A stretch of 64,000 bases of DNA, taken from Naegleria gruberi. Taxonomy: Eukaryota. Shown here piece by piece: positions 5,797 to 40,375 of the stretch; within the stretch, counting starts at the first letter, position 1; each line of letters opens with the position of its first letter. Under the pieces are notes generated by a model, which had not been told where the DNA came from, ran no database searches, and was given only the letters and a program-made list of their open reading frames with translations. A program made the translations under genes and the position numbers. The stretch lies in assembly GCA_000004985.1 (NCBI GenBank), contig GG738867.1, one strand, 5' to 3'.

Positions 5797-6035
5797 TTAA
5801 TAATAATAATATTAATAATAATAATAATAATGAAAATAATCTGTTAATATTACTCACCAAAGCTTTTTCAAGCCTTGTTGTAGGATTGGCAAATAATAAT
5901 GTAATTCCATTAGATAATAACTTAATGGAAATTGTCAATATTACTAATAATATAAATAATGTAAATAATACTAACTCTGTAATGATAGATGATGATTTGA
6001 TTTCAACATCATCTAATGAATCTACTCAACCTTGA
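5087..6035 (+). CDS. Retroelement ORF1-like region (two frames, frameshifted; poly-Asn tract)
   Basis: ORFs 5087..5509 and 5568..6035 lie in different frames. An (AAT)n microsatellite at about 5758..5830 encodes poly-Asn. The second ORF overlaps the ORF2 start. Confidence 0.4.
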
Positions 6036-9000
6036 GTGGAACTACCACTAGTTTAAGACTTGCATGCTACAATGTTAACGGTCTATACAAGCATGCAGTC
6101 CATAAATCTGTAACTCAAGAATTGAAATCTATGTGTTTAACACATGGAGTTCATATGATGAGTATTACAGAAACACACGTTAACACTACTGAATTAGAAA
6201 TTAAAGTTAGAAATTCTGGTTCAGGTTATTTATTATTTAACTCCCTTATGGGTCGATCTAAAGGCTGTAAAGGAACAGCAGTTATGCACTTTTTAAATAA
6301 TCATAGAAAGCGTAACATTACCAATAATAATTTAGTACCTGGAATCTTACAATGGACAAGATTTGAAAGCAGGGGAATTCCAATTAATTTATTTACTATT
6401 TATTTAAGTGGCAGATCAGATGATTATGAAAATGATCAAGAAGCCATTAACAGTTTTATCAATGCTGTTTTAACATGTAAAGATGAACATATTATTTTAA
6501 GTGGGGATCTTAATATTGATACTCAAAACCCCACTACTACAAGAGAAAAGGATTGGATTTGGATTCTTGAAATGTTAAAATTGACAGAATTCAAAACACC
6601 AAATTATACATGGATTAGACGAAGTCAGGGAACTTTAATTAGATCTAGACCTGACCATATCTTTGTCTCAAAGAATATTAGAGTGGTAAAGGAAGTAATT
6701 ATGACACCTTTGACCACTAATGATCATGTCCCTTTTTATTTAGATTTAGAATTTAAATCTAATCTTACTTGGAGAACTTACTTTAGTAAGAATAAGAGGA
6801 AAAGAATGTACGAAGCAATTAATAAGTGTAAAATTGACAATTTTCAAGAGCTGAATCAAGCAATTGAGGCTCAAATAATTAAATATGGATCCAAAGTAGA
6901 TAGATTAGGAGTTGGAAGAATTTCTACAGCATTTAAAGAAGAAATTCAAGATTTAGAGGATGAAATATTATCTAAAATTAATAACCCTAATATTCCTCAA
7001 TCAGAAATACAAGAACTACAAACACTCCTAAAAGAAACACATATTAATAATGCAAAAGAGATTAAGGAAAAACTTATAGATGAATTTAATGATAACTCTT
7101 CATCTAGAATGTATCAATTTGATAAAATGATACACTCTAACCAAATTATGTGGAAAGACCTTAACTTTGAAGAAGAAGAAATAGTGGATTACTTTACAAA
7201 CAAATTTACCTCCACTAATCAACAACCAACATTCACACCAAGTAATTCAACTATCAAAGAAGGTCCAGATTGGAGCAATTCGATTCATATTAAAGAGCTA
7301 CAAGATGCTCTCAAACGAATGAAATCAAACACTTCTGGGCCTGATCTAATCTCACTTGATATAATTAAACATCTTACAGAAGCTAATCAAGGAATCCTCT
7401 TAGAAGAATATAATAGATGTTTAAGAGATGGTGATATTCCACAAAATTGGAAACAAGGATGGGTAAAACTCATTCCTAAAAGAGAAATTAATACCTTAAG
7501 TGATATTCGCCCAATTACTATTTTACCAATATTTTACAGAATATTATTTAATATTATAGCATTTAGATTGAGATCTTGGGCATCAACTCATATTAATGTT
7601 AGACAACAAGCATTTATTACAGACAGAAATACTTTGAATCATGGTGTATTACTCTCTGCCTTAGCAATGAAAACAAGGAAAAGGACTTTTATTTTAGTGA
7701 ATTTAGATATAGAAGGGGCGTATGATGCAGTCGAATTACCTGTCATCAAAATGGCCCTAGACCACTGCAAATACCCTTCAGAACTTACTCAATTCATTTT
7801 AAATGCTTATGCTAACCATGAACTTCAATTAGAAATTGATAATCATCTCTCTGATAAATTTAAGAAAACAAGAGGAATACCACAAGGCTGTCCACTGGCC
7901 CCTCTTATTTACGATTGTATTACCCAATTAATAATTGACAAAGCAATTGATAAGTGGAAGATACCAATCAAACCAGGCAAACTATGTGCAAATGATATTG
8001 CACTCTGCTGTTTTGCTGATGATATGAATGTTGTATGTGACAGATATGCCAAATATAATGAGAGACTAGACAATATTCATGATTGGTTACATCAATTATT
8101 ATTTAAATTGAATGCTAAGAAATCAGTAGCAACTCTATTACCTAAAAAGAGCACAGTCTCACCTAAAATCAAAGGTACTCCAGTACCTAAACAGAAAAAC
8201 CTTAGAGTACTTGGCCATTACCCTTGGGATGATACTTTGGTAACACAAGACATCCAATCCAAGATAGACAAATTCACAAAATCATTAAGATTTTTACCAT
8301 TATTCAAATTACAGCCAACAAACCTTAAAATAATTATGCATGCTAAAGCAATCAGCCTATTCACTCACCTCTCAAAAATCAATATAATCCCTTTAAAGAA
8401 AGCTCAGGAAATAGATCGTGCAATTAGAGGTGCAATCAGACGTAAATTATTAATGGACAGAGCAACTCCAACAAGTTTCTTTCACCTGCCATTAGAAGAA
8501 GGTGGATTAGGATTACCATCAATTGAGGAATTCTCTGAAAGAATGAATTTAAGAACTATGAATTTAATCGCCAATAATAAGAATAAGTTAATAAGAAAAG
8601 CTTTCAAACATGGTATCAAACATTGTGAGGAAACTAAAGATAATATGTATGCTAAATGGTTATCTGTACTTTAAGAATATAATCTCACATTTGTGCAGAA
8701 TGATACGAACTTTAGAATAGCCGGNNNNNNNNNNNNNNNNNNNNNNNNNNNNNNNNNNNNNNNNNNNNNNNNNNACTCAGAATCACACCTCCTTGTTAAG
8801 GATGGTGTTGTCATCTTCAATCATAAGAAGATGACCATAACAAGACATTTAAGTGTAAGACATAATAAGATGAATGAAAACCCTAACTTTATTCTAAACC
8901 AAAGTTGGGATTCTCTTAATGTGCAATACCTTAAAACTCGTCTTACTCCTAAAACTAAATACTTTATATGGAGAAATTCCATCAATGCCCATATCAATTT

Positions 9001-9334
9001 TGGTAAGGGTAAAAGTTTCTGTTACGATTGTGGTACAGAATCTGATTTATTCCATTACATTCATGAGTGCCCTGGCTTGGATAGTGCCAGGTATTTTTGT
9101 CAGTCAAAGATATCTGATATTCTTGAAGGGAGAGAGTGCTTACTTTCTCATTTTCAATTCAAACCAGAAAAGCATCACCATGCATTACATTTCCATCATA
9201 ACGGAATCACCTCTTTCGAAGATGGATACATGCAATTCCATAAAGACATCGCTAAGAAGTGGCCAGAGATCCAAGGTGCCATTTCTAACTTTGTCGGCCG
9301 TTCCTATTCTAACTATTATATTGACTCCAAATAA
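6032..9334 (+). CDS. Retroelement ORF2: apurinic-endonuclease-like + reverse transcriptase + CCHC zinc knuckle (interrupted)
   Basis: APE motifs: LRLACYNVNGL, ILSGDLNID, RPDHIFVS. RT motifs: ILVNLDIEGAYD, PQGCPLAP, CCFADDMNVV. CCHC: CYDCGTESDLFHYIHEC at 8775..9334. An in-frame TAA at 8672..8674 and the N gap at 8725..8774 interrupt the ORF. The frame across the gap is not interpretable. Confidence 0.75.
8725..8774. other. Assembly gap (50 N) inside retroelement
   Basis: A run of exactly 50 N characters. Confidence 0.99.
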
Positions 9335-17083: not shown

Positions 17084-17758
17084 TTATTGCTTGTTAGCAA
17101 AGATACATCCACCAGTTCCAGTTTGACCACTGACAGGACACTTATCACACTTTTCAACAATTCCATGTCTTGAATTATCATCAACATAATATTTGGCAAA
17201 CAAATCATTTTGAATCCACAACAACTTGTTGAAAGCCAACAATGTCTTGACTCTTTGTTCTTCACTCAAATCCTTACAAGTAGCAATAGTTCCCAACAAG
17301 ACATCAGAAACATAACCAAATAAGGCATTGATGTGAATATAATCAATAATAATATCCTTATTACCAGCCTTGGCAGTGTGAATCTTACCAACCCAATCCA
17401 AATAATTAACAAAAGCCTTTGATGTATAATCAGCAGTGACAAGCTTGACAAGATACTTGCTCAACATGTCCTTTCTGAATCTGATTTGTTCACTAGCCTT
17501 ATCATCTAATTCATCCAAATTTTCTTCCATCTTTCCTTCAAATTGATCATTTCTAACAAGGAAAGTTCTTTTAGTAACATCAAAACTGAATAACTTTTTG
17601 TAAACCAAATCAACAACAGTTGGAACCAAAGGAGCCAAAACTGTAGCAGATTCATGAATATACTTGATATCTTCTTCACCAAAACCAATAAATTTGGTAA
17701 CATAGCTGAATCTATATTGCAAGTCAGTGAAAAGTTGCTTTTCTTCGATAGTTTGCAT
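17084..17758 (-). CDS. Globin-sensor/protoglobin-like domain protein (tentative) with Cys-rich C-terminus
   Basis: 224-aa ORF. Family assignment rests on overall helical pattern only. The C-terminus is Cys-rich (KCDKCPVSGQTGTGGC). Confidence 0.4.
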   Translation of the reverse strand: MQTIEEKQLFTDLQYRFSYVTKFIGFGEEDIKYIHESATVLAPLVPTVVDLVYKKLFSFDVTKRTFLVRNDQFEGKMEENLDELDDKASEQIRFRKDMLSKYLVKLVTADYTSKAFVNYLDWVGKIHTAKAGNKDIIIDYIHINALFGYVSDVLLGTIATCKDLSEEQRVKTLLAFNKLLWIQNDLFAKYYVDDNSRHGIVEKCDKCPVSGQTGTGGCIFANKQ

Positions 17759-20398: not shown

Positions 20399-20487
20399 AG
20401 GCGACTGAGGGAATTGAACCCTCGACCCTCAGTTATCTCGACATTTCTGCCTACAAGACTGATGCACTGCCACTGTGCTAAGCCGCC
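20399..20487 (-). tRNA. tRNA-Thr(UGU) with a 17-nt intron (tentative isotype)
   Basis: On the minus strand the 7-bp acceptor stem is GGCGGCT/AGTCGCC with one G-U pair. The D arm is GCAC-AGTGGCA-GTGC and the T arm is GAGGG-TTCAATT-CCCTC. The anticodon stem TCAGT/ACTGA is formed only if 17 nt (GGCAGAAATGTCGAGAT) are removed 3' of position 37. The loop is C-T-TGT-A, giving anticodon UGU. TTTT follows the 3' end. Confidence 0.7.
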
Positions 20488-20707
20488 TTACAATCGATGA
20501 ATTCACTCAAAAATAAATGCAAAACAATTGCTAAAATAAAAGTGTTTATCTTAAATTCCTCATTCTAACTCTCTATTCCAATCTTTACTCATTCACATAT
20601 TCACAAACACAAATCAAAAGAACTTTAATTGCCAATTATCTAAGTTTGTGAGCTCATGTCATTCGTGCCAACACTAAATTATATATCAAACTTGAATTGT
20701 CATCAGA

Positions 20708-22456
20708 TCATTCGAATGGTTCATAGGATGAAGTATTATTCTCTTCCGATGTTTGTTGATTCAGAGATGTGGTGAGTGTTGACGTCTCACAGGAATTTGT
20801 TGACTTTTCCTTATTGAAACATTTGTAAAGTGTTAAAAATTCTTCCTTATCAAATTCCATAAAGGCCACCCCAATTCCAAGCAAAGTACTACTCAAATAG
20901 GTTGATAATGAGATGAAAGTCAAAATACCAGGTCCAATAAAAGTTGGTTGGGACAATGCCAACACAGCATAGGACAAGGAAATGGCAAATAGAATTACTG
21001 ATGAGAAAATGATAAATCTAACATGCTACATGTATCATTTAAATCCATATTCCAAAATATTAGCTTACTTACATTTGTTTGCACTAGGTTAATATCTGAT
21101 AATTGTTTCATTACTCGATGAGTATAAAGTGAGGCACAAATAAATACTTGATTTTTCATGTTAATTTTTCAAATTGGCTTGGAACTTACCACACAAGGCC
21201 GCAAATGAAAAAACTGACAAGTAAATGTAATAGAACATTTGAAATTGTCCCATGTCATTTGGAAATGCAACAGAGGCAACTATTGGTGAAATTATTCCAA
21301 CTGTAAAAAAGAGTAAACCTAGGAAAATGTAGCAAACTCTTACTGAAATAGTTATTTTACGAGCTCTCGCTAACTCAACAATTCTATACAAGCCGAAAAT
21401 CCAAGCAAATAAACCGAATATAGAAATAATATTAGAAAGAGCTGCAAAAATCAAGGTAGTCTTAGAATAAGAATCTGATGCCAGAATCTGCACACTTGCT
21501 ATTATCTGAAATAGAAATCCAATCACAACACAAGAGGTTGGAATCAAATTAGCAAACCTTTTAGTTTTGACAACTTTTCCTAATTTTGGAATAAAACCTG
21601 CAAAAAAGATAATTACAGAGAGAATGAAATGTGTAAATGTCACACCAATTCTCGTTATTAAATTTGCAATCATATCATTCATTCCAAATGTGCATTTGGG
21701 TCCAAACGATTTGCTCTCCACACACGAGCATATATAGGAATAGGTTCCCAATAAAGAACTCTTCACAATTTGACTATTATTAACCAAAATGGGAAATCCA
21801 AAGATTGTATATCCACAATAGAGTATTGATCTTGGAAATCCAAGAATCATTTCTCTAGCAATTGAATCTCTCGGCTGGCATGTACCTTCCAAGATTCTCC
21901 TCTTGTAATTCCTCGATTCCTCTCCACAATATTGACATGCATTAATCCAATCAGTTAACATGGTCTCTCCATTCGTTGAATTGTAAATAAAATCATTCAA
22001 AGAACCAATTCCATTATTCAACATCATCTGCGACCGATCACACAACAATTCAGTGCACGAACTATTCATAATTCTCTCCCAACGTTTCACACTTTGGCAA
22101 ATATCAAAACTCTCTTTCGGAAGCAGTGCAATATCATTAATAAATTCATAGAACTTTACATGAATATTCATTTCATAATATTTAGCTAGTTTTACATTTT
22201 CACATGAAAAGAAGGGTGAAATTTCTTCTGAATTTAATGCATGTTTTCTTAATTCTGCACCATTGGTCATCAATTCGGAGGCATTCCTACAATTTTCAAA
22301 GGAATTTAATTGTGTATAATTTTCATTCCACTCAGTCGTTGATGATTTGTTAATCATCATGAATAATAGAACAATTATTTCCGCAAACACAACAATAATA
22401 TTCTTCCTATTTGTGATCAATGCTGGGCTGGGTGTGATCTTCCCTTGTCTCGTCAT
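20708..22456 (-). CDS. Paralogue A of a Cys-rich-ectodomain multi-pass (probable 7TM) receptor-like family, 2 exons (~518 aa)
   Basis: Exon 1 is 22456..21190, with a phase-1 gtaagt donor, and exon 2 is 20997..20708, after an atcag acceptor. The protein has a signal anchor and an N-glycosylated ectodomain of about 200 aa with 12 Cys. Conserved ectodomain motifs are C-T-E-L-L-C-D, TDWINACQYC, CQPRD, FPRSILYCG, FGFPILV and CSC. Six to seven TM helices follow, with an acidic Ser/Thr tail. Confidence 0.7.
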
Positions 22457-22482
22457 TTTTTTAGGCTTTTTATAGATCTATT

Positions 22483-24196
22483 TCAGTTCTGTGGTGAAAT
22501 GTCGTCTGATGTGGTGGTGAGAGGAAGTGATTCTTCTTTGGTGGGAATATTATCTATATAATTATCACTATTAACATTTGACTGTCTCTTGAATTTACAG
22601 GGAAGGTACATTTCTTTGAATTCAACTGAATCAAATTCTACAATGATTAAACCTAATGAAACGATGGAGAATAGAGCAGAAACTAGAGAGTAGATACCTG
22701 AGGACCACCTATCGTCAATGATTGAATTAATGCAGAGAATGTGGAGCAAATATCCAAGACAAACCAGAACAAATGCAACAATTACAAAAATGGAAAATTT
22801 CAAAAACTTATACAGTTAATAAAAGAAAAATAGAGAAACATACTGGTGATTGCATCAAATTGATATCAGAAATCTTTCTCATCTCAACATAAATCCAAAC
22901 AGATGAGACAATAATTGCTTGTAAAAGTTAATAGAATCAATTCATCCATGAAACATACCAATCACACTAACAATAGAAGCTCCTAATAAATAAGATTCCA
23001 AAGCATTTACAAAATAAATTGCATAAACATTTTGAGTATAGATTGAGGCAACTATAAAAGGAAGAATAACTCCAAATGAGATTGAGGCAAACAATGGAAT
23101 TACATAGAGGAAAATTGTAGCTCTCAATGATAAAGGACTATGTCTAACTAATCTAATCCAATTGGACAACCATGAAAATATGGCCAATTGTAAAAAGTTG
23201 AAAGACAATTGATAAGCAATTAAGAAAATAAAAATAATGAGCGAATTTGAAAATAACACAACTCCAAAGCAAATACTCCAAGATCCTACAAATATTCCAT
23301 TGTAAATACTTGGTATAATATTCAGATACTTTCTATCTCTGAGCATTCTCTTTGTTTTTGGAATGATACTTATAAAAGTATTGAGAATAAAGAGAACTAA
23401 TGAAGAAGCAAAGAAAAAGTAAATTGATGCCATGTCAAAGTTTGAATCTTCACCTAAGTAACATTTGGATACCTGAAAAGCAACTGCACAGATACAGGAA
23501 ATCATTCGTATATTTTCCAAACAAACTATTCGATTGTACTAGAAATGGAATTCCAAATGATTGAGTTCCACAAAAATAAATTGATGTTGGAAATTCACTA
23601 ATCATTCTATTGGAGAGTTGATCTCGCGATTGGCAACTCCCAGCAGAAACTCTTTTCTTAAAATGTTCACTTCTTCCAAGACAATACTGACATCCATTAA
23701 TCCAATCTGTTAAATTATTCGTTCCATTAGTATTTAACATTAAATATTCCTGTAAATTCTCAATTTTCCCATCATAATCACACAACAAATCAATACACGT
23801 CCTATTAAGTCTCGATTCCCAATAATTCAACTGCATACAAGCATCCACATCCCCAAAATACGAATCAACCCTAAATTCACCACTTTTTCCCTGTATTTGT
23901 TGAATAGTTTGAATTGTATAAATCATCATTGAATTACACTCAAAAGAGAGTGGTATCTTTGGTTCTCGGAATGTTCCCTTCCCAAACTCAACAGGATTAA
24001 ACATGTACGGTGATGAATGATTACAACCGGAAAAGATTGGAAAATATTCTTCTTGACCATTCACGGCATATAATTGATCATGATAATAAATGAATAGGAA
24101 GAGGAGGAGGATCGAGAGGATTATTCGGAATCTATTGTTGTTTGGATAGAAAATGCTTTTCATCGATTCCAATTCATTTCTGTTTTGGAGTTTCAA
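22483..24196 (-). pseudogene. Paralogue B of the same receptor-like family, disrupted by two apparent 1-nt frameshifts (pseudogene or homopolymer sequencing errors)
   Basis: It has the same ectodomain motifs (CIDLLCD, TDWINGCQYC, CQSRD, FPTSIYFCG, FGIPFLV, LCSC). The frame shifts between LYLCSC and the following KC at about 23466..23480, next to TTTT. The donor at 22958 is phase 1 but the only usable acceptor at 22807 is phase 0, next to a TTTTT run. The last exon 22483..22806 encodes TM6-7 and the tail. Confidence 0.55.
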
Positions 24197-24382
24197 TAGC
24201 TATTGAAATAGGTTACTTGATTGTGTTATGCATTGATTGGTTAACCTGGATTCTGTCTATTTTTGAATAACAAGGAATGCATTCCAAGTTATTTTGTTTC
24301 CCGCCACTTTAGTAAAGAGTTCATCAGATAACATCTTGTATCTGAACAATGTCAGTTTCTTTCAAAATCCATAATTAAAAAA

Positions 24383-26729
24383 ATGAAAGTGTCACCAGAG
24401 GTTAATACTGTACTGAGCTCCCAAGAAATTGACGTTTCTGACAAGCAACTGCTTCTCCAAGAAAAGAGAAGAAAATTCTATCAAGGAGTAGTTCCCTTAA
24501 ATTTATTCATTGTTTGCACCATTTCCTTATTGATTTTGAGTGGTTGCATATTCGTTTGGGTTTCGTCTTTTATCGTTACTAGCAATTCAATAGAAAATTT
24601 GAATGCCATGTTTATTGAAGAATCTGGTCAAAAGATCATTAAGAGTTTGACTGGTTATCTGGACCCAGCTGCAAAACTTACGAAAATGTTGGCCAAAGAT
24701 TGGAATTCTGGCTCGGTTAATCTTACTCAATTGAGAGAGTACTTATTTCCAAAATTCCAACAATTTGAAACGAGTGGTTGTGGTTTCTTTTTCAATGATA
24801 CCTATTCTTATAGATACACTTATACAGTGAGTGGTACTGCAAGTAATCCAGTTGTAGGTAAGTTGTTTCTTTTTTGAATATGGAAGGAATTTGAAACTTT
24901 TCAGTTTATAGTCAACAACCTTATGGTTTCATAGGTTCCATTCGTGACATGATTAATATCACAACAGGAGATGTTATTAAATATAAATACCAAGTAATTT
25001 ACACTCCAATTATCATGGTTGACCAAGACTATTGGATTTATCTTTCTAAATATACTAAACAGACTGGGCAAGAAGGTGTTCTGGGAGATCCTTATCTTGC
25101 ACCAGGTGCTAGTATGACAATCTATTATGCACAATGGGTATACGATCAAATATTGTGGAAAACTCAAAAGCAAAAGAGAATTATTGGGCTTGCAAAGATT
25201 AATCTTTCTCTTGATTCCATTGTCAATTATCTATCCAAGATTAAACTCTTAGGTGACGGTTATGTAGTAGTCACATTAAACTCTGGACTGGTAATTGGTG
25301 GTTCCATAAACACAACCGTCAATGATGGTCTGACATCTGCTCATATTTTTGATATTGAAACCAGAGGTGCTGGAAAGTTGATTAAGAAATTCTATGAGAA
25401 TAATGGAAATACTTTCCTAACCTTCCCAGAGAATATGAAGTTAAGCAGTGATGGAGTTGGATATATTATCACTCCAATCAAGTTTAAATATGAGAATTTA
25501 GAGTGGAATATTTTCTTTGTCTTGTATGAATCTGATGTGAACGAGGCATTAGTGATTAGCTCTTCCGTGAGTGTTGGTGTCACAGTGGTGATTGTCATAT
25601 TTGGTATTACTGCAAGTTTGTGCACTGGTTGGATTGTTTCTCGACCAATGAAATTCTTAGAAAATCAATTTGAATCAATTAGAATATTAGATTTGGAAGC
25701 AGTTAATTTGAGTAAGATATCCATGTTCAGAGAAGTTGATTCAATCTTTAACAATCTATATGATACAGTTTCATGGCTCAAGGAAATCAAATCTTTCATT
25801 CCAGATTATGTGTTTGAGCAAATCAAACAAAACCAGGAAGTTGAATTGCATAAAGGACAGGAAGTTAAAGAAAAGAATGATCACCTTTCTGAATCATCCT
25901 CCAGAAAATCAGTTTCATCCTCCAGAAGTGCAATGACGGCCAAACATTCTTCAGATAAGAGTTCATTCAAGAATCAACATCAATCGCTTTTCAAAATGGG
26001 TTACAGCAAGAAAGGGGTAGTATTCATTCATGCTAAATTGGAGAATTTAGTTGAGCAAGAGGTGGATTACATTTCAAACTTTTTCAAGGGATTCATTTCT
26101 GCAATATCAACAGTTGTAAAGGTTAATCAAGCAACTTTACATGTCATTTCATGTGAAGAGATTCAGATTTCACTAACTTCCAACTCTTTAGATGAGAAAA
26201 CCTATGAGAAAGGAGTTGACATTGCTTTAAAGATTGTTAAATCTTGCGACTCAAAAGTCATACCAAGAATTATTCAGAATTTGCCTCCAAGTATGATGTT
26301 AAAATAGTAACAGATTCAGAAAATATGCCACTTGATAAGTATATTAATCGTCCACTTGATATTATTGAAATGAAACAGCAGAGAGTGAGGATACATGAAT
26401 TAATTGATAAGAAGAATACTGATAATGATGAATGGTTGTACGAATTAGAAAACTCTAAAAAGAATAATAAGTATGCAGAATATTCCAAAATATTTGAAAT
26501 ATTCCATAATGATTATTGGAATGGAAAGGATGTTGCTGTGGAAGTGGAAGATTTGTTATTGGTTTTGGATCGTTTTAGAAATGTAGAGTTTTCTGGAAGG
26601 AATGACTTGTCGTGTGATGAATTATCAAACTTTTTAACAGATCTACTGCAAGTTACTGATCCACGAGAAGCAAATTCTAGATCCAGTACCTATGCTAAAA
26701 AATTGGTCCTAGACCTGAAGGTAATATAA
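24383..26729 (+). CDS. Two-TM receptor-like protein: large extracellular Cache/CHASE-like sensor domain, HAMP-like linker, degenerate class III cyclase-like cytoplasmic domain (tentative); 3' part in shifted frame
   Basis: Exon 1 is 24383..24857 (gtaagt donor) and exon 2 starts at 24935 after catag. TM1 is LNLFIVCTISLLILSGCIFVWV and TM2 is VISSSVSVGVTVVIVIFGITASL, flanking an extracellular domain of about 330 aa. A segment GVVFIHAKLENL...KVNQATLHVIS sits where the cyclase metal-binding and transition-state residues would be, but those residues are substituted. The reading frame changes at 26290..26308 to an ORF that stays open to 26729. The only GT-AG solution there is a 17-nt intron, which is implausibly short. 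Confidence 0.55.
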
Positions 26730-26773
26730 TCCCTTCAATAAGTACTATGATGAGTGAAAGCATTACTAAATAA

Positions 26774-28500
26774 CTACTTTGAAGTAGCACTGCTCTGACT
26801 GGTATAGTAGGTAATAGAATCCTTATTTGCAGTTTCCATTGATTCATCCTTCATTGATGAATATCCAGCGTTTTGATTAGTTAAAGATTCTGAAAGAGAG
26901 ACATCGAACTCCAAATCAGTGCTACCTCTTTTACAATAATAGAATGATCTAAATTCGTCGTTATTATATTCTGAATAAAACAATGCAATAGCAATTGAAA
27001 ACTCAAACACAACAAGCATGGTTCCAAAAAAAAGATACCAAACACCAATTACGTTTTCTAATGCTACAATTGAAATGAAAAATGATGCCATCAGTAACAG
27101 TAAAACTGAGACAAACACTACAAATTTGGAGTACTAATTCAAATTAAGTTAATGTTACAAATATCACTACTTACAAAAGTGTTATGTGTAATTTCAACAT
27201 CAGTCAATTTTTTCAAACTAATATTTGCCCAAATTGATGAAATAATAAATGCTAAATGATATTAATAATGAAAATTCTCAAAGCACTTACCAAGTGTTGA
27301 TAATAAAGACAGCACTGCCATAATAATATTATAAGCATTTCTAAAAATATTAACTACAGTGAAGAAAAATACAATTGGAATGACAAATCCAAAACCAATA
27401 GCAATTAAGAATAACACAGAGTGCACAATAATTGACTTAATGAGAATGCCTCTTATTTTTTGTATAGTCCACACTATTCTTATCCAGTAATGAACCCATG
27501 AAAATAATGCCATAATCAAAAAGCTTGGACTTGCTGTATTCAGAGTTCCAAATAGTCCTCTGGCTATTGCATAGTCAGATGGTAAAAAGGAAGCGACCCA
27601 AAAGCTAATATTAAATACGAGTAAATAAAATAGGCAATATAAACTAGTAGAAATAGGAAGGTACCTCTTGGTCTTGAAGCACTGTTTCATCTTTGGTAAG
27701 AAGACGAAAAATACAAAGCAAACCATTAAAATTGTCTCAAAAATAATGATAGCAAAATTAATTAAAGTCAAAAATTGATTCAATGCTAATTCTGTATCAC
27801 AATTGAATGCAAAAAATAAAAGTTCTGGGCATGTACAATAGTATGAGAAAGTTTCTGAACTGGAATATCCAGACAACACACTATTATTGATTACTAATGG
27901 AAACCCAAAATTATTTCTTCCACAATAAGTAATTGTTGAAGGAAATTGATTAATCATTAGATTAGCAACTGAATCTCTTGGATTACATTGTTGTAATAAG
28001 GTCCTTGTCTTAAATTCCTTTGCATGCTTACAGTATTGACACGAATTAATCCAATCATGTAATTGCAATCCTCCGTAAGAGGTTACTAAGCTCAAATCCT
28101 CCAAACCACTATCACACAATAAATCCACACATGTAATATTCAATATATTTTCCATATATTCCACTACCTGGCATGTGTCATACATTGGTGAAGACTGAAT
28201 CAACAGACGATTCCACATCGAATATGAAAACGGTGATGAAGCATCATACGTCTGTGCAACATAGGTAGAATTACAATAAAAATCAAGTGGAAATCGTTCA
28301 TTAGTTATCATGTTAGTATGATTAAAATATATCATTTCAATAGATGGATTCCTACAATTCTGAAAATATGCATATTGATATATTCCCGGAGCAGTAATTG
28401 TCGTCATATTGGATGCCGCCTCCACTTGTAAATTCATCATCATCATTAAAAGTAGTAAAATTGTGGAGGAGAAAATATGTTGTAGATAATTATCTTGCAT
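26774..28500 (-). CDS. Paralogue C of the Cys-rich-ectodomain multi-pass receptor-like family, 2 exons (~517 aa)
   Basis: Exon 1 is 28500..27291, with a phase-1 gtaagt donor, and exon 2 is 27117..26774, after a ttgtag acceptor. The signal peptide is MQDNYLQHIFSSTILLLLMMMMNLQVEA. The 12-Cys ectodomain carries ITCVDLLCD, HDWINSCQYC, CNPRD, FPSTITYCG, FGFPLVI and YCTC, followed by the TM bundle and an acidic tail. Confidence 0.7.
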
Positions 28501-31097: not shown

Positions 31098-32531
31098 TTA
31101 TTTGGAACGAAGAATCTTTTTGAATTTGCCCTTCAAAATTCTTCTAAATGTTTTTCCACTAAATAGCTCTGCAAATATTACCAAACATAGAATTACCAAA
31201 AGATAAACACTCAATCCAATAAACCACTCAGAAGTTGCATAAATTCCGTGCACTCCAAAGTATAAATTCAAAATTCCAGCCAAAACAATAATTCTTCCTC
31301 CCCAAATATGGAAAAATGTTGAAATTTGTTTTGAAATCTTTTTAAAATTACTTGATTTTCTGAGGAATGATTCTTGTTCTGTTGATTTTCCATTTCCTGA
31401 CACCTGTTGACTATCTTTCTTTTTAAAGAATAAATGAAATACTGCTGTCAATGGTCCTGTCAACATTAATTGATATAATATCAATGCTAAAAATACAAAT
31501 AATCCAATCCACTTGTGAATACTATCAAAATGTCTATTCGTTGTCAGTGAACAAGCAACCAGTGATAAAATAAATGCAATGACAATGCAAACAACTCCAA
31601 CAATTGAGAGAACAATGTGAGTGGCAACTCCTTTGATTTTTGCAGAGAAACGAGCCGAATGTCTCACAGCCAACATGGATGCCACTAAAATTAATGAAAA
31701 TCCAATAATCATCAAGATTCCATGTGTAATTCTCAATCCCTGTAGTGTTACAGTTACAGGATAATAGTAAATACTTTGAAATTCAAACCAACCATATCCC
31801 ATATTCGAAAAAACAATATTCGAAAGTACATTCTCACCACTTGAAGTCCAAGTTGCAAAATTCAAAAACATAATTCCTCTCTCATTCTTTTTCGATGGTA
31901 AGAAAACATCATGTTCAACATCTGTCGTATTTTTCAATCTACTAAATTCAATAACTTTTACAATACATTTATCCTTTCCCACACAAGTCAACTCTTGATT
32001 TGATGTAATTTCTATATTACTCAACCCACCATCCAATTGATCTAATTTGGCATTCTTAAATATTTCACTCGTAGAAAATCCAGTTAAATCATCATTCGTA
32101 TTATTTGTTTTGTAATACATGTCATAGGCATTGTCATTATTAAATATCATCACATCAACAATGTATCTCATCGGAATGGTTGATCTTTCCACTATAATAT
32201 TAGGTACGGCTAAACTCACACCAATTATTCTACTTTCGTCCAACACCATTGGATTCACAACAAATTCACTCACAACTGATCCATTAAACATAATGCCATC
32301 TTTCTGCCAGTAAAAAACAAATAATGGTAAATCACTGAGAATGGCATAATTGTTATTATTCTTGATGTAATTGGTGTGAAGTTTGCTTGTTAAATAATTT
32401 GATAAATTAATTTCTGTTGATGATGAAAAGTGACACACAAATGTCAACACAATAATGCAAATAAGTGATAGGTGGTGTAGATGTGTTGACATTCTTTTTG
32501 AGGATGGAAAAATCGGGAAGAAATTATCCAA
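31098..32531 (-). CDS. DOMON domain + cytochrome b561 protein (ferric-chelate reductase 1-like)
   Basis: 477-aa ORF. It has a signal peptide, an extracellular beta-rich domain, and then six TM helices carrying paired His residues (HGILMIIGF...RH, HIVLSIVG, HKWIGLFVF, HIWGGRIIVLAG...HG). This is typical of the b561 di-heme core. Confidence 0.6.
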   Translation of the reverse strand: MDNFFPIFPSSKRMSTHLHHLSLICIIVLTFVCHFSSSTEINLSNYLTSKLHTNYIKNNNNYAILSDLPLFVFYWQKDGIMFNGSVVSEFVVNPMVLDESRIIGVSLAVPNIIVERSTIPMRYIVDVMIFNNDNAYDMYYKTNNTNDDLTGFSTSEIFKNAKLDQLDGGLSNIEITSNQELTCVGKDKCIVKVIEFSRLKNTTDVEHDVFLPSKKNERGIMFLNFATWTSSGENVLSNIVFSNMGYGWFEFQSIYYYPVTVTLQGLRITHGILMIIGFSLILVASMLAVRHSARFSAKIKGVATHIVLSIVGVVCIVIAFILSLVACSLTTNRHFDSIHKWIGLFVFLALILYQLMLTGPLTAVFHLFFKKKDSQQVSGNGKSTEQESFLRKSSNFKKISKQISTFFHIWGGRIIVLAGILNLYFGVHGIYATSEWFIGLSVYLLVILCLVIFAELFSGKTFRRILKGKFKKILRSK

Positions 32532-32639: not shown

Positions 32640-34025
32640 CTACCACCAACCTCCAACCTTAAATACATCTTTATACAATGCACGAGCTATTTCAATGAAT
32701 TCACTTTGAACTTCTTTAGGAATGAACTCAAACGCCAAAATCTTAAATGATGGCCGTTTTGTTCGATTCTTGGCATCTGACTTGATGGCTTCTAAAATAA
32801 TCACTCGATCACGTTTCAATTCATCGGATGCAAATTGAATTGCGTTTCCATCTTGTTGCACAGCTCGTAACACCAAATCTCTGTCATTTTTCAATATTAA
32901 GGAAGCATATTCCAGAGCCATGCCTTCTTGTTTGACAGCTTCAAACATGACATCTCTGTCATTACTGCAAAATGAACCTCTGATTATATCAATTACAGAA
33001 CCAGAGTAGTATCTATAACTGTTTAGAGTTTGTAAAACTATTTCCTTTTCATTTTGTAGCTCAATAGATGCATATTCAAATGCCATTCCATTCGATTGAA
33101 GTGCTTTCATAACTATTTCTCTATGGTTTCTCAATTCGTGTGATGCAAATTCAAGAGAAATTCCATTTTGCTTAACAGCTTTCATTACAATTTCCTCATC
33201 TCTGTTAAATTCTTCTGATAAATATTCTAAAACAGTTCCTTTGGTTTTCACGCATTGTAAAACAAATTCTCTGAACCATTTCTTGTCATTTCTCAAATCT
33301 TGTGAAGGAAATCTGACAGCAATTCCATCATATTGAGCTGCTTTCATCAAAATTTCCTTGTCATTCCTTGCAATAGCTGACCATTTCAATATTTCTTCAG
33401 TTCCATTATACGATTTGCTTGTTTCCAGAGCTTTCAAAATCAAATCTCTATCCTCAGGAATATTCTCAAATATCCAATAAATCAATTTCCAATTTTCCAC
33501 AGCTTTTAACACAAATTGTTTGTTCTCCCACAAGTTGAGCACTTTTGCAATTCTAATTAACTTGTTTTCGTCTTTGAGTTTGAGAATTTCTTGAATAATA
33601 AACTTTTCGTCTCGTTTCCAATTCAATGAATTTCGAAAATTTAGAAAGGGTGAATTCTTGGAATGTTTTTTCATTGGGTTTTCTTCATCACTTTCATCTT
33701 CCAAATCTGAATCACTAGTTTCGTCTTCTTGATTACTTTCGTCTTGTTCATCTGAATCTGAATTTTCGTTATCAGAATTTTCTATGTTGGAATTTTCAAC
33801 GTCATGATGAAAGTGTGAAGGTTTCAAGTGAAAAGTTTCGAATATCGGTTTCATTATCATTTCAATTTTCAAAGCTTGGGGAACATCTTGGATTCGAATA
33901 GGAAGAAGTTTCGATTTGTGATGTATATCGAGAGAAATTATGACTGGTCCTGTGGTTGCATTTTGATCGGATTTGTTTTTCTTGTTCTTGTTGTGTGAAG
34001 CAGTATCTTGTAAGGATCGTTTCAT
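32640..34025 (-). CDS. DUF4116-like repeat protein with acidic N-terminal region
   Basis: 461-aa ORF with about eight repeats of the pattern EIVMKAVKQNGISLEFASHELRN(D/H)R. Confidence 0.55.
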   Translation of the reverse strand: MKRSLQDTASHNKNKKNKSDQNATTGPVIISLDIHHKSKLLPIRIQDVPQALKIEMIMKPIFETFHLKPSHFHHDVENSNIENSDNENSDSDEQDESNQEDETSDSDLEDESDEENPMKKHSKNSPFLNFRNSLNWKRDEKFIIQEILKLKDENKLIRIAKVLNLWENKQFVLKAVENWKLIYWIFENIPEDRDLILKALETSKSYNGTEEILKWSAIARNDKEILMKAAQYDGIAVRFPSQDLRNDKKWFREFVLQCVKTKGTVLEYLSEEFNRDEEIVMKAVKQNGISLEFASHELRNHREIVMKALQSNGMAFEYASIELQNEKEIVLQTLNSYRYYSGSVIDIIRGSFCSNDRDVMFEAVKQEGMALEYASLILKNDRDLVLRAVQQDGNAIQFASDELKRDRVIILEAIKSDAKNRTKRPSFKILAFEFIPKEVQSEFIEIARALYKDVFKVGGWW

Positions 34026-35346: not shown

Positions 35347-38037
35347 TTGTTTGGACAACTGTTGATAATTAAAAAATCTGATACCAGTCAGTTTACAATG
35401 AGTCTGTCCTCTGGTAAGGTGTGCAATGCTGTCACAAGAAAAAAAATGCTTTCCCAAGATGATGAAAAAAGTTACCGAAATTGTCAAGAATTAGTTAAAT
35501 GGTTGGAGGAACAGAGGTGTCCACCCACGATTAGAAAAGGTAGGCTGCTCTAAGTGATTTATTAATTATTAATACTTTGGGTAAATCAGCATTACAAGAT
35601 AACGCTTGTGATGAGTGGATTTTGTGTAACAGTGATGAAGAAACTCTGTTGCAAGAATTAAATCTAACCAAATTACAATTACGCGCGTTGATGAGATTCA
35701 TCACTAACTCCTCCTCATCGTCAAGCAATAGCAGCAGCTCATCATCAAACTCTACCAAGAAAGATACACCACAAATTACTTCGAATGAATTTGACAACAA
35801 GTATAACAACATTGGTTTACTGGGAAGTGGAGGTTACGGAAAAGTGTATAAAGTGACGCTCAAGCATAAACCAAGTATTATGCGAGCTGTCAAGGTAATT
35901 GAAGATCGATACGATTTTACTGTTAACGAAGCATTGAAAGAAGTAATGCAAACAATGAAAGTTGCACACAAACATGTTGTGCAAATATATGATGTTACTA
36001 TTACTAATAATCGTTCACTGATGATTGAGATGGAATGTTTGGAATGTGGAAGTTTATACGACCATTTCATTAGGAAACGAGTTAAGCCTTCTGAAAGGAT
36101 AGCCATTTCAATCATTCAGCAGATATTAAGCGCACTTCAATTTATGCAAAAAAGTTTTAAAATGGTTCACAGAGATGTCAAACCAGCAAACATTTTGATT
36201 AGATCTATCGATTTAGACAAGGGTGAAATTGATGTTTGTTTGGCAGATTTTGGATTTGCAAGATCATTTGAACCTTCATCTCAAATATCTAACATTTACG
36301 GTACATTTTCTTATTTAGCTCCTGAAGTTAAATTAGTTTTGGACAATGATGAAATGAGATCAAAACAACCCTACTCAGTAGCTTCTGATATTTATGCATT
36401 AGGTGCAACAATGTTTTATCTAATGACGTTTAATCAAGCCAACCAAGCCAATCATCAATTATTGAATTCGCTAAACCATTACTCATCGAAACTGGTTGCA
36501 ATTATTTTGAAAATGTTAAGTGAAGATCCAATAGATAGACATTTAGAAATTACTACAATCAATATGTCACAAATTTCTACTTTTGGACATGATAACCAAG
36601 TCAAGGAATTAAAGAATCAAGTGACCGAAACAACCTTAGAATCTACAATTATTCAACATACTGCAAATCAAGAAAATATAGTTACTCAATATAATTTAGG
36701 TATGAAGTATATAAAAGGAGAAGGATGTGAAAAATCATTTGAAAAAGCATTTGAATGGTTTGAAAAATCTGCAAATCAAGGATATAATGAAGCCCAATAT
36801 AGGTTAGGTTTGATGTATTGCTTTGGACAAGGATGTAACGAATCATTTGAAAAAGCATTTGAATGGTATGAAAAATCTGCAAATCAAGGACATAATGAGG
36901 CGCAATTTAGGTTAGGTTTGATGTATTATCTTGGAAATGGATGTAAACAATCATTTGAAAAAGCATTTGAATGGTATGAAAAATCTGCAAATCAAGGAAT
37001 TGCTATTGCTCAACATATGTTTGGTGAGATGTATTTACAAGGAGAAGGATGCAAACAATTATTTGAAAAAGCATTTGAATGGTTTGAAAAATCTGCAAAT
37101 CAAGGATATAATGAAGCGCAATTTAATTTAGGTTCGATGTATTTAATTGGAGAAGGATGTGACAAATCATTTGAAAAAGCATTTGAATGGTTTGAAAAAT
37201 CTGCAAATCAAGGACACAAAATGCACAATTTTATTTAGGTTTGATGTATTATAATGGACAAGGATGTCAACAATCATTTGAAAAAGCTCTTAAATGGTAT
37301 GAAAAATCTGCAAATCAAGGACATAATGAGGCGCAATTTAGGTTAGGTTTGATGTATTATCTTGGAAAAAGATGTAGACAATCATTTGAAAAAGCATTTG
37401 AATGGGTTGAAAAATCTGCAAATCAAGGATATGATGAAGCACAATTTAAGTTAGCCTGGATGTATTTTAATGGAGAAGGATGTGAAAAATCATGTGAAAA
37501 AGCATTTGAATGGTATGAAAAATCTGCAAATCAAGGTCATACAAAAGCTCCATATAGGTTAGGTTTGATGTATTATCTTGGAAAAGGATGTAAACAATCA
37601 TTTGAAAAAGCATTTGAATGGTATGAAAAATCTGCTAATCAAGAAAATGCAGTTGCTAAATTTAATTTAGGTTTGATGTATTATAATGGAGAAGGATGTC
37701 AACAATCATTTGAAAAAGCACTTAAATGGTATAAAAAAGCTGCTAATCAAGAACATGCTAATGCTCAATTTAATTTAGGTTTGATGTATTATAATGGAAA
37801 AGGATGTGAAAAATCATTTGAAAAAGCATTTGAATGGTATGAAAAAGCTGCTAATCAAGAACATGTAAATGCTCAACATGTATTTAGGTTAGATGTATTT
37901 TAATGGAGAAGGATGTAAACAATCATTTGAAAAAGCATTTGAATGGTATGAAAAATCTGCAAATCAAGGACATAATGGTGCGCAATTTAGGTTAGGTTTG
38001 ATGTATTATCTTGGAAAAGGATGTAGACAATCATTTG
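35347..38037 (+). CDS. Ser/Thr protein kinase fused to a long Sel1-like (SLR) repeat array; 3' end lost in assembly gap
   Basis: Exon 1 is 35347..35539 (phase-1 gtaggc donor, 50-nt intron) and exon 2 starts at 35590. Kinase motifs are GSGGYGKVYKV, HRDVKPANILI, DFGFAR and YLAPE. From about 36690 there are at least 12 near-identical 36-aa repeats (GEGCEKSFEKAFEWYEKSANQGHNEAQFRLGLMYY). Frame breaks occur at about 37225 and about 37890 inside the array. Confidence 0.7.
36690..38037 (+). repeat. Tandem array of ~108-bp near-identical units (Sel1 repeat coding), truncated by gap
   Basis: The period is 108 bp with more than 90 percent identity between units. The units can be read by eye in the sequence (tcatttgaaaaagcatttgaatggtatgaaaaatctgcaaatcaagg...). 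Confidence 0.85.
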
Positions 38038-38087
38038 NNNNNNNNNNNNNNNNNNNNNNNNNNNNNNNNNNNNNNNNNNNNNNNNNN
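38038..38087. other. Assembly gap (50 N) between Sel1 array and convergent gene
   Basis: A run of exactly 50 N characters. Confidence 0.99.
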
Positions 38088-40375
38088 GTTATTAAACTTT
38101 CTGTATTGTAACATTCAGAAGAATTTTTCAAATTTCGAGCAGTCTTGTTAAGTTTTTCTGTTGTCAATTCTTGGATATCGAAAAAGTCATCAATAATTGA
38201 GTCATCGGCAAAGTTGATGAAAATTCTGGATAATTTACGTTCCTCCTCGTGTAAGACATAATGTACATTCTGCCAATCGTCAATTTCCTTTGAAATTTCC
38301 TCAAATAGCATAATCCACAACTTTTTCACAAATACAAATCGATAACTATATGATGAATATTGAGAATCAGTTAAAAGGGTCAAAATACGTAATGCATGAA
38401 TAGCATTGGTGCCATACAAATTCTTTGGAAGGACTTGCTCATCGAAAACATTTTGTTTCTTGGAAGATTTCTTAGGTGTGGTTGGTGTCGAGTTATTGGA
38501 ATTATTTGCAGAGGATTTTTCACCATTACTTGATGAGGATGAAATTGGTGAGCTTGTTGGGTCATGTGAAGGACCTGGAGCAATATACAAATCTTTCTCG
38601 CTCAACAATTCAAATTCTGTTGTAACAGATGAAGATCTTAAACCAAAGAAGAGATTCATTACACTTGGAGAGAATCCTAACTTGTTACTAATCACGCTAT
38701 AAATCATTGGAATTAAGAATAGGAGAATAAAGTCCTTGTGTACCTCATCCTTTTCCGTATTCTTCTTTGAGATGTGAATGTCCATATAGGCCAGCCAAGA
38801 TTTAACAATTTCAACCAATTTTTCATTAACATCTGCAATAGCTTGAGATTTGAGAGTGATTTGCTCAACAGTTTTCTGAATTAATTGCTTGTCATGAGAT
38901 TGAATGGCTTTTAGAAGTTGAGTGAAGAGAATGGAAGATTTCATTTCCAATTCCTTATTTTGTTTAGAAACTGATGCGAGTGAGTCCAATGTCTTCTTAA
39001 TGAACTGAATTTCAGATTCATATGTTGGATAATTATCCGATACTGTGTTTGTTGAGTAAATGTCTTTGAATATTTCTTCCAAAAATTCACTTCTTATCTT
39101 TTCTCCCTTTTCATTGAGTTGCTTGATGGCTGGATCAATTCTTGAGAGATTTTCAATTTCCCTTCGTAGCATTGTGTTCTTTGTCTTGACATGGACATCA
39201 ATGGCAGAACATATTGACTGGAGAATGGAATCCAAAGATTGTCTGTCCCCAAATCTATTCAAATTCAATTTGAGAATTTGATACTCAGTATTCTGTGCAT
39301 CTCTATCAACTATGGAATCAACTTCACTTAATCTATACGATCCACCATATTCATCTCTTTTCTTATAATCTGAGGAGAATAGAGTTGTTAGATATTTAGG
39401 TTGTGTACTTTCGAATAATAGCAACTCTGAAATGGTTGTAATTTTCGTCGCACTTTCGGACAATAACACATTGGCCAATAATGCATGCTCACTTAATGAA
39501 GATGAAATGCATGATTTGTGCATTTGCTTGAGGGAAATGGATAAATTGATTGAACTTGCAACATCCTCAATTAAATTATTGAAACCATTAGATTTTTCAC
39601 CATTTCTTCTCATTGCATTGATAACATCCTCAACAAATTGAATATCAAACAAATCTTCGAGAATAATACTAACTACTTGATGGATCCAATCTTTGGAGAG
39701 TGAAGATTCCAATTGTGTCATGATTTCCATTACTAATAAATCAAAATACTTTTCAAATCCTAATTTTCTTCTCTTCTCTGGATTTTTAATGATGAATGCA
39801 ACCTTTGCAGGAAATAAATTCGTTAATTCCTTTGTCATTTTCATGACTTTTGCCAATCTTTGATGAAATTTCAATACTTCTGAATATCTTCTATGTGATG
39901 AAAGTGAACATTTTCCATTTCTGACAGTCATTGTTATTTGATATTTCATTTTCGATGTCCCAACAACAATGAATGGACAAGACAATTTGAAACACTTGAA
40001 TTCTGCTGATGGAATTAGTAATTGATCCTCCTGTGCGAGTTCACTCAACCAAGTAACTTTCTGTACATTGTTTTGTGATGTTATTGTGACTGGTGAAGAG
40101 GAAACACTATTTTCAACTCTAGGAGATTGTTGATCTTGTTTACCATTATTCGTATTGTTGTTGTTATTATTATTATTATTGTTGGCAGTATTAGAATCTG
40201 GTGGTGAAGAATTATTGGAAGAGGATTTTTGGAATCGTCCAGCCATTGGTGAAGTATTCGAAATGATTGTAGCAAATCTTCTCACTCTGACAGGTGTTGT
40301 TAGTTGACCTTGTTGCACAACTTCGGAAGAAGCATTATTCTCTTCACCTGATGATGGTGATGAGGTTTGGGACAT
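38088..40375 (-). CDS. PX-domain protein (sorting-nexin-like), C-terminus truncated by gap
   Basis: The PX motif region is RRYSEVLKFHQRL...FPAKVAFIIKNPEKRRKLGFEKYFDLL. The N-terminus has a poly-Asn tract. A long helical C-terminal region reads into the gap. Confidence 0.6.

What the first reader, a model, noticed from the sequence alone, without database searches (positions are those of the whole stretch)
20708..28500. Tandem cluster of three paralogous Cys-rich-ectodomain 7TM-like receptor genes with an interleaved Cache/CHASE-like sensor on the opposite strand
Three minus-strand genes (A 20708-22456, B 22483-24196, C 26774-28500) share the same two-exon structure and a phase-1 intron inside TM5. 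Their N-glycosylated ectodomains of about 200 aa have 12 positionally conserved Cys and shared motifs (xLLCD, DWINxCQYC, CQxRD, FPxSIxYCG, FGxPxLV, CxC-x9-C). A 6-7 helix bundle and an acidic Ser/Thr tail follow. This motif set does not match the ligand-binding domains of the classical dictyostelid GPCR groups, namely cAR/Crl, GABA-B-like Grl and frizzled CRD-containing Fsl. A two-TM protein with a large extracellular sensor fold and a degenerate cyclase-like domain (24383-26729, plus strand) sits between B and C. The arrangement looks like a locally amplified chemosensory or adhesion receptor locus from a family that may be lineage-specific or undescribed.
Basis: partly seen in the sequence, partly recalled or inferred. 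Interest (0 to 1): 0.8.

Follow-up and report, generated by a model that had tools for sequence, protein, structure and literature searches.

The report
Naegleria-only receptor family, novel ectodomain
The three genes are real, but they belong to the amoeboflagellate Naegleria gruberi rather than a slime mould, and they encode an undescribed Naegleria-only family of receptor-like membrane proteins that join a GPCR-type seven-helix bundle to a cysteine-rich outer domain with no recognisable fold.

Summary
The three minus-strand paralogs (A, B, C) exist at the stated coordinates. Each has 12 conserved ectodomain Cys, seven hydrophobic helices and an acidic Ser/Thr tail.

- **Organism.** The window is Naegleria gruberi, not a dictyostelid. 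Gene D is 99% identical to XP_002677327, and gene A is XP_002677422.
- **Gene structure.** The genes have three exons and two introns of 37-47 nt, not two exons.
- **Gene B.** It carries a frameshift in this assembly. It is intact in a 97%-identical metagenome allele.
- **Gene D.** It has lost 45 aa of its already degenerate cyclase-like core.
- **Interleaving.** The closest N. fowleri cluster has three tandem copies and no D-like gene, so the interleaving is not conserved.

The family is tiny. A profile search of 1.84 billion representatives gave 35 hits, one of them a false positive. Every named member checked is a Naegleria hypothetical protein. There is no Pfam or PDB sequence match.

Best reading: lineage-specific orphan GPCR-fold surface receptors, and candidates for the missing GPCRs of Naegleria. 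Function is inferred, not shown.

The parts
21190..22456 (-). Gene A exon 1 (NAEGRDRAFT_67427). It encodes the signal/anchor, the Cys-rich ectodomain (residues about 37-262, window 21671-22348), TM1-TM4 and the first half of TM5. It ends in a phase-1 GTAAGT donor.
   Evidence: ORF and splice sites. Splicing is identical to GenBank model P0050. That model starts at Met63 and so omits the signal peptide and the first conserved Cys.
21073..21146 (-). Gene A exon 2 (74 nt). It encodes the second half of TM5 and the ICL3 motif MKQLSDINLVQTN. It is flanked by introns at 21147-21189 (43 nt) and 21026-21072 (47 nt).
   Evidence: A 1-nt indel against allele L001 falls inside intron 1.
20708..21025 (-). 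Gene A exon 3. It encodes TM6, TM7, the helix-8 motif EFDKEEFLTLYKC, a Ser/Thr-rich acidic tail ending in YEPF, and the stop codon.
22959..24163 (-). Gene B exon 1, disrupted by a frameshift near 23467-23473 in this assembly. It is intact in allele L001. No N. gruberi protein model for B was found in the collection.
   Evidence: pN/pS against L001 is 0.19-0.37.
22844..22917 (-). Gene B exon 2 (...MRKISDINLMQSP). It is flanked by introns at 22918-22958 (41 nt) and 22807-22843 (37 nt).
   Evidence: A 1-nt indel and an AAG/CAG acceptor difference against L001 fall inside intron 2.
22483..22806 (-). Gene B exon 3. It encodes TM6, TM7, the motif EFDSVEFKEMYLPC and the tail. Its stop codon lies only 26 nt upstream of the ATG of gene A.
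27291..28500 (-). Gene C exon 1. It encodes a cleavable-looking signal peptide, the Cys-rich ectodomain and TM1 to the first half of TM5. No matching protein exists in the 15-billion-protein collection, so the gene appears unannotated.
   Evidence: Its absence is inferred, where no hit above 210 bits appears other than the A and B representatives.
27175..27251 (-). Gene C exon 2 (...LKKLTDVEITHNTF). It is flanked by introns at 27252-27290 (39 nt) and 27134-27174 (41 nt).
26774..27133 (-). Gene C exon 3. It encodes TM6, TM7, the motif EYNNDEFRSFYYC and a Ser/Thr-rich tail with TYYTS near the end.
24383..26729 (+). Gene D (NAEGRDRAFT_67428). Layout: short cytosolic N-terminus, TM, extracellular domain of about 300 aa with weak dCache_1 similarity, TM, linker, and a degenerate cyclase-homology domain that lacks 45 aa of its core. 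The intron is at 24858-24904 (47 nt). The frame changes within 26241-26307. It is not part of the receptor family and probably not functionally linked to it.
   Evidence: Pfam Guanylate_cyc hits appear only in paralogs, just under the cutoff. dCache_1 scores E 0.025.

Best explanation
A, B and C are members of a small Naegleria-restricted family of type-I, N-out/C-in seven-helix receptors. The parts, in order, are:
- a signal peptide;
- a glycosylatable ectodomain of about 200 aa, probably held by six disulfides (12 conserved Cys), with a fold not seen in solved structures;
- a transmembrane bundle with the GPCR fold;
- an amphipathic helix 8 (E-F-D/E-x-x-E-F-x-x-x-Y-x-C) followed by Cys residues that look like palmitoylation sites;
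- a Ser/Thr-rich acidic tail.

The most likely mode of action is inferred, not shown. The ectodomain would bind an extracellular ligand or surface. That event would be passed through the seven-helix bundle to cytosolic partners, most plausibly heterotrimeric G proteins, and tail phosphorylation would regulate the receptor.

The three genes arose by old tandem duplication, which their shared intron positions support. A and C look functional. B is disrupted in this strain. D is an unrelated, decaying neighbour.
For: **Shown**
- Paralogy and the three-exon gene models.
- 12 conserved Cys, and an ectodomain more conserved than the TM core.
- Seven aligned hydrophobic segments, with Lys/Arg-rich loops after TM1, TM3 and TM5 in the aligned sequences.
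- Purifying selection between alleles: pN/pS is 0.16 for A.
- AlphaFold2 model of N. gruberi paralog P0007: pLDDT 84.5, pTM 0.74, seven TM helices plus helix 8.
- The family has 35 profile hits (one a false positive), and every named member checked is from Naegleria.

**Context from the literature**
- N. fowleri has 13 G-alpha subunits. Some are slow exchangers that presumably need a receptor GEF, and arrestin-like genes are transcribed.
- Only one cAR-like GPCR candidate was recognised by homology (PMC9283941).
- G-alpha has diversified in N. gruberi (PMC3971589).
Against: - There is no sequence similarity to any GPCR class, and no DRY, NPxxY or CWxP-type motif was identified.
- Foldseek E-values are weak (8e-3 or worse).
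- There are no expression, localisation or coupling data.
- A C-terminal YxxPhi-like motif in 5 of 12 complete tails would also fit an endosomal or Golgi trafficking protein.
- The ectodomain is the conserved part, which is unusual for a diversifying chemoreceptor family.
Confidence: 0.55

Rival explanations
1. These are non-signalling seven-helix membrane proteins of the secretory or endosomal system, acting as cargo or lipid handlers in the manner of GOST proteins (TMEM87, GPR107/108, Wntless). The luminal Cys-rich domain would bind cargo, and a cytosolic tyrosine motif would drive sorting.
For: - A YxxPhi-like motif lies within the last 14 residues in 5 of 12 complete members, including A (YEPF).
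- No GPCR microswitch motifs were found.
Against: - There is no Lung_7-TM_R or GpcrRhopsn4 Pfam hit.
- Class A GPCRs score 1-3 Z units higher than TMEM87A.
- Helix 8 followed by a Cys cluster and a Ser/Thr tail is the usual GPCR layout.
Confidence: 0.2
2. These are surface adhesion or recognition molecules, for prey, substrate or self, that use the seven-helix bundle only as an anchor or signal through partners other than G proteins.
For: - The ectodomain is large, disulfide-rich, glycosylatable and structurally conserved.
- Naegleria 7TM-RGS proteins with adhesion-like N-termini show that this lineage uses 7TM scaffolds in unconventional ways (PMC9283941).
Against: - No known adhesion module (EGF, lectin, GAIN/GPS) was detected.
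- The conserved helix 8 and ICL3 motifs (K..SD[IV]N, EFDxxEF) imply a conserved cytosolic interaction.
Confidence: 0.15
3. The four genes form one sensory module. The 7TM receptors would work together with the interleaved Cache-like, cyclase-like protein D.
For: - The genes are physically interleaved.
- B and D are divergently oriented with 219 nt between their start codons.
Against: - The closest N. fowleri cluster has three tandem receptors and no D-like gene.
- D lacks 45 aa of the cyclase core and changes frame.
- D gives no Pfam hit at all.
- B is frameshifted in this strain.
- D has paralogs on other N. gruberi scaffolds.
Confidence: 0.04
4. The locus is a graveyard of decaying, non-functional gene copies.
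For: - B is frameshifted and D is internally deleted in this assembly.
- B and C have no protein model in the collection.
Against: - A and C have full open reading frames with all 12 Cys and all motifs.
- pN/pS is 0.16 for A and 0.19-0.37 for B against a second allele, and B is intact there.
Confidence: 0.06

Closest known systems
GPCR superfamily in the structural sense (orphan class A such as GPR3/GPR6; also class B1, C and T)
   Different: Identity in the structural alignments is about 10%. There is no Pfam or PDB sequence match. No class-defining motifs were found. The ectodomain is unrelated to any known GPCR ligand-binding domain.
Frizzled/Smoothened (class F: Fz cysteine-rich domain plus 7TM)
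   Same: Both join an N-terminal Cys-rich extracellular domain to a 7TM bundle.
GOST proteins (TMEM87A/B, GPR107/108, GPR180, Wntless)
   Different: There is no GOLD-type beta-sandwich and no Lung_7-TM_R Pfam hit. The structural score is lower than for class A GPCRs.
Naegleria/plant 7TM-RGS proteins and the single cAR-like candidate GPCR of N. fowleri (PMC9283941)
   Same: They come from the same organisms and are 7TM proteins proposed to sense extracellular cues for an expanded G-alpha repertoire.
   Different: This family has no RGS domain, only a short tail of 31-89 aa, and no Dicty_CAR hit. It is not mentioned in that study, which notes only that other 7TM proteins without similarity were found with 7TMRmine ('data not shown').

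Membership tests
GPCR fold (structural superfamily) | Seven TM helices in GPCR order and packing, N-terminus outside, C-terminus inside | tested here: met
GPCR (functional definition) | Ligand-dependent guanine-nucleotide exchange on a heterotrimeric G protein | not testable with these tools
   This needs biochemistry with Naegleria G-alpha subunits.
Rhodopsin, secretin/adhesion and glutamate classes (Pfam 7tm_1, 7tm_2, 7tm_3) | A sequence-profile match to the class 7TM model | tested here: not met
   There is no hit for A, B or C at E up to 10. None of the 37 family members hits these models.
Frizzled (class F) | An Fz cysteine-rich domain (10 Cys, helical) together with the Frizzled 7TM profile | tested here: not met
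Dictyostelium cAR/Crl (Dicty_CAR) | A match to the Dicty_CAR profile and a short N-terminus | tested here: not met
   There is no Pfam hit. The family has a large ectodomain.
GOST / Lung_7-TM_R | An N-terminal GOLD beta-sandwich together with the Lung_7-TM_R or GpcrRhopsn4 7TM profile | tested here: not met
Adhesion GPCR | A GAIN domain with a GPS autoproteolysis motif next to TM1 | tested here: not met
   There is no GPS or GAIN Pfam hit and no structural match for the ectodomain.
Class III nucleotidyl cyclase (for gene D) | A complete Guanylate_cyc catalytic domain with metal-binding Asp residues | tested here: not met
   D gives no Pfam hit. Its paralogs score just under the cutoff (20.5 against 21.9 bits). 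D lacks 45 aa of the core. The sequence reads FIHAKL where I recall canonical cyclases having a F-x-D-I-type metal-binding motif (the canonical motif is from memory).
dCache_1 sensor (for gene D) | A match to the dCache_1 profile between two TM helices | tested here: inconclusive
   There are only sub-threshold hits: E 0.025 and 14.5 bits against a cutoff of 45, and E 0.15 in paralog P0048. The two-TM topology fits. No structure prediction was run.

The most novel reading that the evidence does not exclude
This family supplies the missing ligand-activated GPCRs (GEFs) for the slow-exchange G-alpha subunits of Naegleria. Its ectodomain would be a new ligand-binding fold. With roughly half a dozen or more members per species it would define a new GPCR class that arose, or diverged beyond recognition, in Heterolobosea. 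It would also offer surface drug targets in the brain-eating amoeba N. fowleri.
Probability: 0.25. Interest if true: 0.75.

Novelty: new variant of a known kind. Interest (0 to 1): 0.55.

Why it matters
Naegleria has a large G-protein toolkit. N. fowleri has 13 G-alpha subunits, 28 7TM-RGS proteins and arrestin-like genes, yet only one homology-recognisable GPCR candidate (PMC9283941). Pfam-based GPCR surveys (PMC3971589) cannot see this family.

A Naegleria-specific family with the GPCR fold is therefore a concrete, testable set of candidates. They could be the receptors that activate its conventional G-alpha subunits. The family is present in the pathogen N. fowleri.

The ectodomain is confidently modelled but matches no solved structure, so it may be a new extracellular fold.

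There are also practical gains for annotation:
- the public model of gene A lacks its signal peptide and first conserved Cys;
- genes B and C appear unannotated;
- the public model of gene D hides a frame-breaking deletion behind an implausible 32-nt intron.

Tried and rejected
- I used exact exon-1 translations for that search (A2) and for the structure-prediction alignments. As a result, the full 7TM model is of paralog P0007 and not of a window protein.
- **Exact-sequence look-ups.** Look-ups of two window ORFs and of P0044 found no contig. The organism was identified instead from the 99% hit P0044 and from cluster names.
- **Third homolog search.** A search with the 37-sequence profile returned only the query's own cluster, because of the word-index limit.
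- **PDB profile searches.** These gave only noise (E above 1).
- **Stray Pfam hits.** Dredd_N (E 0.002, one protein) and 7TM_GPCR_Srab (E 6e-4, one of 37 members) are not shared across members. I treated both as chance.
- **Literature.** A search for the locus tags found nothing.
- **Two-exon model.** Rejected. Skipping the 74-nt middle exon breaks the frame, because intron 1 is phase 1 and intron 2 is phase 0.
- **Dictyostelid origin.** Rejected.
- **NJ tree.** A rough tree without bootstraps groups A, B and C with one other N. gruberi gene and puts the N. fowleri cluster elsewhere. I use it only as a hint that the tandem arrays expanded separately.
Full report
**What is in the sequence**

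Region 20.7-28.5 kb holds three minus-strand genes with clear mutual similarity. tblastn gives A vs C 1e-40 and A vs B 1e-28, and protein identity is 28-30%. One plus-strand gene lies between B and C.

Reading the DNA and assembling the exons shows three exons per receptor gene, not two:
- Exon 1 is about 1.2 kb and ends in a phase-1 GTAAGT or GTATGT donor inside TM5.
- Exon 2 is 74-77 nt and encodes the rest of TM5 plus a conserved K-x-[LIV]-[ST]-D-[IV]-[NE] loop.
- Exon 3 encodes TM6, TM7 and the tail, and follows a phase-0 intron.
- The six introns are 37-47 nt long.

Three lines of evidence support this model:
- The GenBank protein for gene A (P0050) uses exactly the same junctions.
- Against a 97%-identical allele on metagenome contig L001, length differences inside the proposed introns are 1 nt. 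Those in the exons are 3 or 9 nt, the one exception being B's frameshift described next.
- The second intron position is shared with the N. fowleri homologs, while the TM5 intron is shared only by A, B and C.

Gene A encodes 552 aa and gene C 548 aa.

Gene B is frameshifted in exon 1 of this assembly. The window reads GGTATCC where the intact allele reads GGAATCAAATCC, which gives a 538-aa protein.

pN/pS between the alleles is 0.16 for A and 0.19-0.37 for B. The genes are, or until recently were, under purifying selection.

**Protein anatomy**

All three proteins share the following features:
- an N-terminal signal or anchor;
- an ectodomain of about 200 aa with 12 aligned Cys and 4-6 NxS/T sequons;
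- seven aligned hydrophobic segments, with Lys/Arg-rich loops after TM1, TM3 and TM5, which fits N-out/C-in topology;
- the motif E-F-D/E-x-x-E-F-x-x-x-Y-x-C directly after TM7;
- a tail of 31-89 aa across the family that is 10-31% Ser/Thr and 12-20% Asp/Glu.

Five of 12 complete family tails, including A (YEPF), carry a YxxPhi-like motif near the C-terminus.

Across the family the ectodomain is the best-conserved part. It retains W-I-N-Y-C-x-Y-C, F-P, C-G, G-x-P and C-x-C...C. The TM core retains only scattered residues: P-K after TM1, L..W in TM3, and K..D in ICL3.

**Organism**

Gene D is 99% identical to XP_002677327 (NAEGRDRAFT_67428). Gene A is XP_002677422 (NAEGRDRAFT_67427). Both lie on a 424-kb Naegleria gruberi scaffold. 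The window is therefore heterolobosean, not dictyostelid.

**Family size and range**

A profile search of 1.84 billion cluster representatives found 35 proteins at E of 1e-3 or better. One of these is a repetitive false positive.

Every named member in the 20 clusters I looked up is a 'hypothetical' or 'predicted' protein of N. gruberi, N. fowleri or N. lovaniensis. The remaining hits come from metagenomes.

N. gruberi has about eight annotated members, plus B and C. Neither B nor C has a protein model in the collection.

No paper in the held library mentions the locus tags.

**Family membership**

There is no Pfam hit for A, B or C at E up to 10, apart from one stray sub-threshold match. No Pfam family is shared by more than one of 37 members. 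Profiles built from 3 and from 37 sequences find nothing in PDB sequences.

**Structure**

AlphaFold2 gave a confident full-length model of N. gruberi paralog P0007 using the 37-row family alignment. The model has pLDDT 84.5 and pTM 0.74. It shows an alpha/beta ectodomain, seven TM helices and helix 8.

- Foldseek against the PDB returned almost only GPCRs, at weak E-values (best 8e-3).

The core therefore has the GPCR fold, but no class can be assigned.

**The neighbour D**

D has two TM helices around an extracellular region of about 300 aa. That region has only sub-threshold dCache_1 similarity.

D's paralogs carry a cyclase-homology domain that scores just under the Pfam cutoff. D itself lacks 45 aa of that core and changes frame at the deletion. 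The public model bridges the break with a 32-nt GTTAAA...AG 'intron', which is unlike the other introns here.

In N. fowleri the closest relatives of A, B and C are FDP41_003040, 003041 and 003042. They form a same-strand tandem trio with no D-like gene. The interleaving is therefore not conserved, and I treat D as a bystander.

**Interpretation**

Shown:
- a lineage-restricted, selectively maintained family;
- a GPCR-fold core combined with a structurally orphan disulfide-rich ectodomain.

Inferred:
- the proteins are surface receptors;
- ectodomain occupancy is relayed through the bundle to cytosolic partners.

G proteins are the obvious candidate partners. N. fowleri has 13 G-alpha subunits, including slow exchangers that presumably need a receptor GEF, and it has arrestin-like genes. 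Only one cAR-like GPCR was recognisable by homology (PMC9283941). Pfam-based surveys (PMC3971589) would miss this family.

The main rival is a GOST-like trafficking role. The C-terminal tyrosine motif and the lack of GPCR microswitch motifs favour it. The non-GOLD ectodomain and the higher structural scores to class A GPCRs count against it.

**Verdict**

It is wrong on the taxon, the exon structure, the recency of the amplification and the relevance of D.

I rate this a new variant of a known kind (GPCR-fold receptors), of moderate-to-good interest.

Noticed in passing
window 22457-22482: Only 26 nt separate the stop codon of gene B from the ATG of gene A. Either A's promoter lies inside B, or the two genes are co-transcribed.
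   Followed up: no
window 26236-26307: The public model of NAEGRDRAFT_67428 (gene D) bridges a frame-breaking internal deletion with a 32-nt GTTAAA...AG intron. The introns verified here are 37-47 nt with GTAAGT or GTATGT donors. The model is probably an annotation artefact over a decayed gene.
   Followed up: partly
window 22271-22456: The public model of gene A (P0050) starts at Met63. It omits the signal/anchor and the first Cys, which is conserved in 96% of the family. The upstream ATG at 22456 gives the complete protein.
   Followed up: yes
L002 10001-15004 (N. fowleri VFQX01000033.1): Three family members lie in tandem on one strand: FDP41_003040, 003041 (partial model) and 003042. They have only the second intron (100-140 nt) and lack the TM5 intron seen in the N. 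gruberi trio.
   Followed up: partly
window 6032-9334: A non-LTR retrotransposon ORF has endonuclease and reverse-transcriptase domains (RVT_1 E 3e-28). An assembly gap (run of N, read as X) follows it near 8.72 kb. A second N-run lies near 38.0 kb inside the ORF at 38006-40375.
   Followed up: partly
window 35577-37903: A protein kinase is fused to a long array of Sel1 repeats (Pkinase 3e-40, Sel1 6e-55). The array is split over two adjacent ORFs, by a stop codon or possibly a small intron.
   Followed up: no
window 17084-17758 (-), 32640-34025 (-), 31098-32531 (-), 60925-63174 (+): Other genes in the window: a protoglobin-family protein (4e-40); a DUF4116-repeat protein (1.5e-66); a cytochrome b561-domain membrane protein with a large N-terminal domain; and a teneurin-type EGF-repeat surface protein with a C-terminal TM.
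   Followed up: partly
L001 (ENA ERZ929261 metagenome contig, 4384 bp): An environmental contig is 97-99% identical to window 20447-24726, so it comes from a second N. gruberi-like strain. It carries an intact B and has 3- and 9-nt in-frame indels in A and B.
   Followed up: yes
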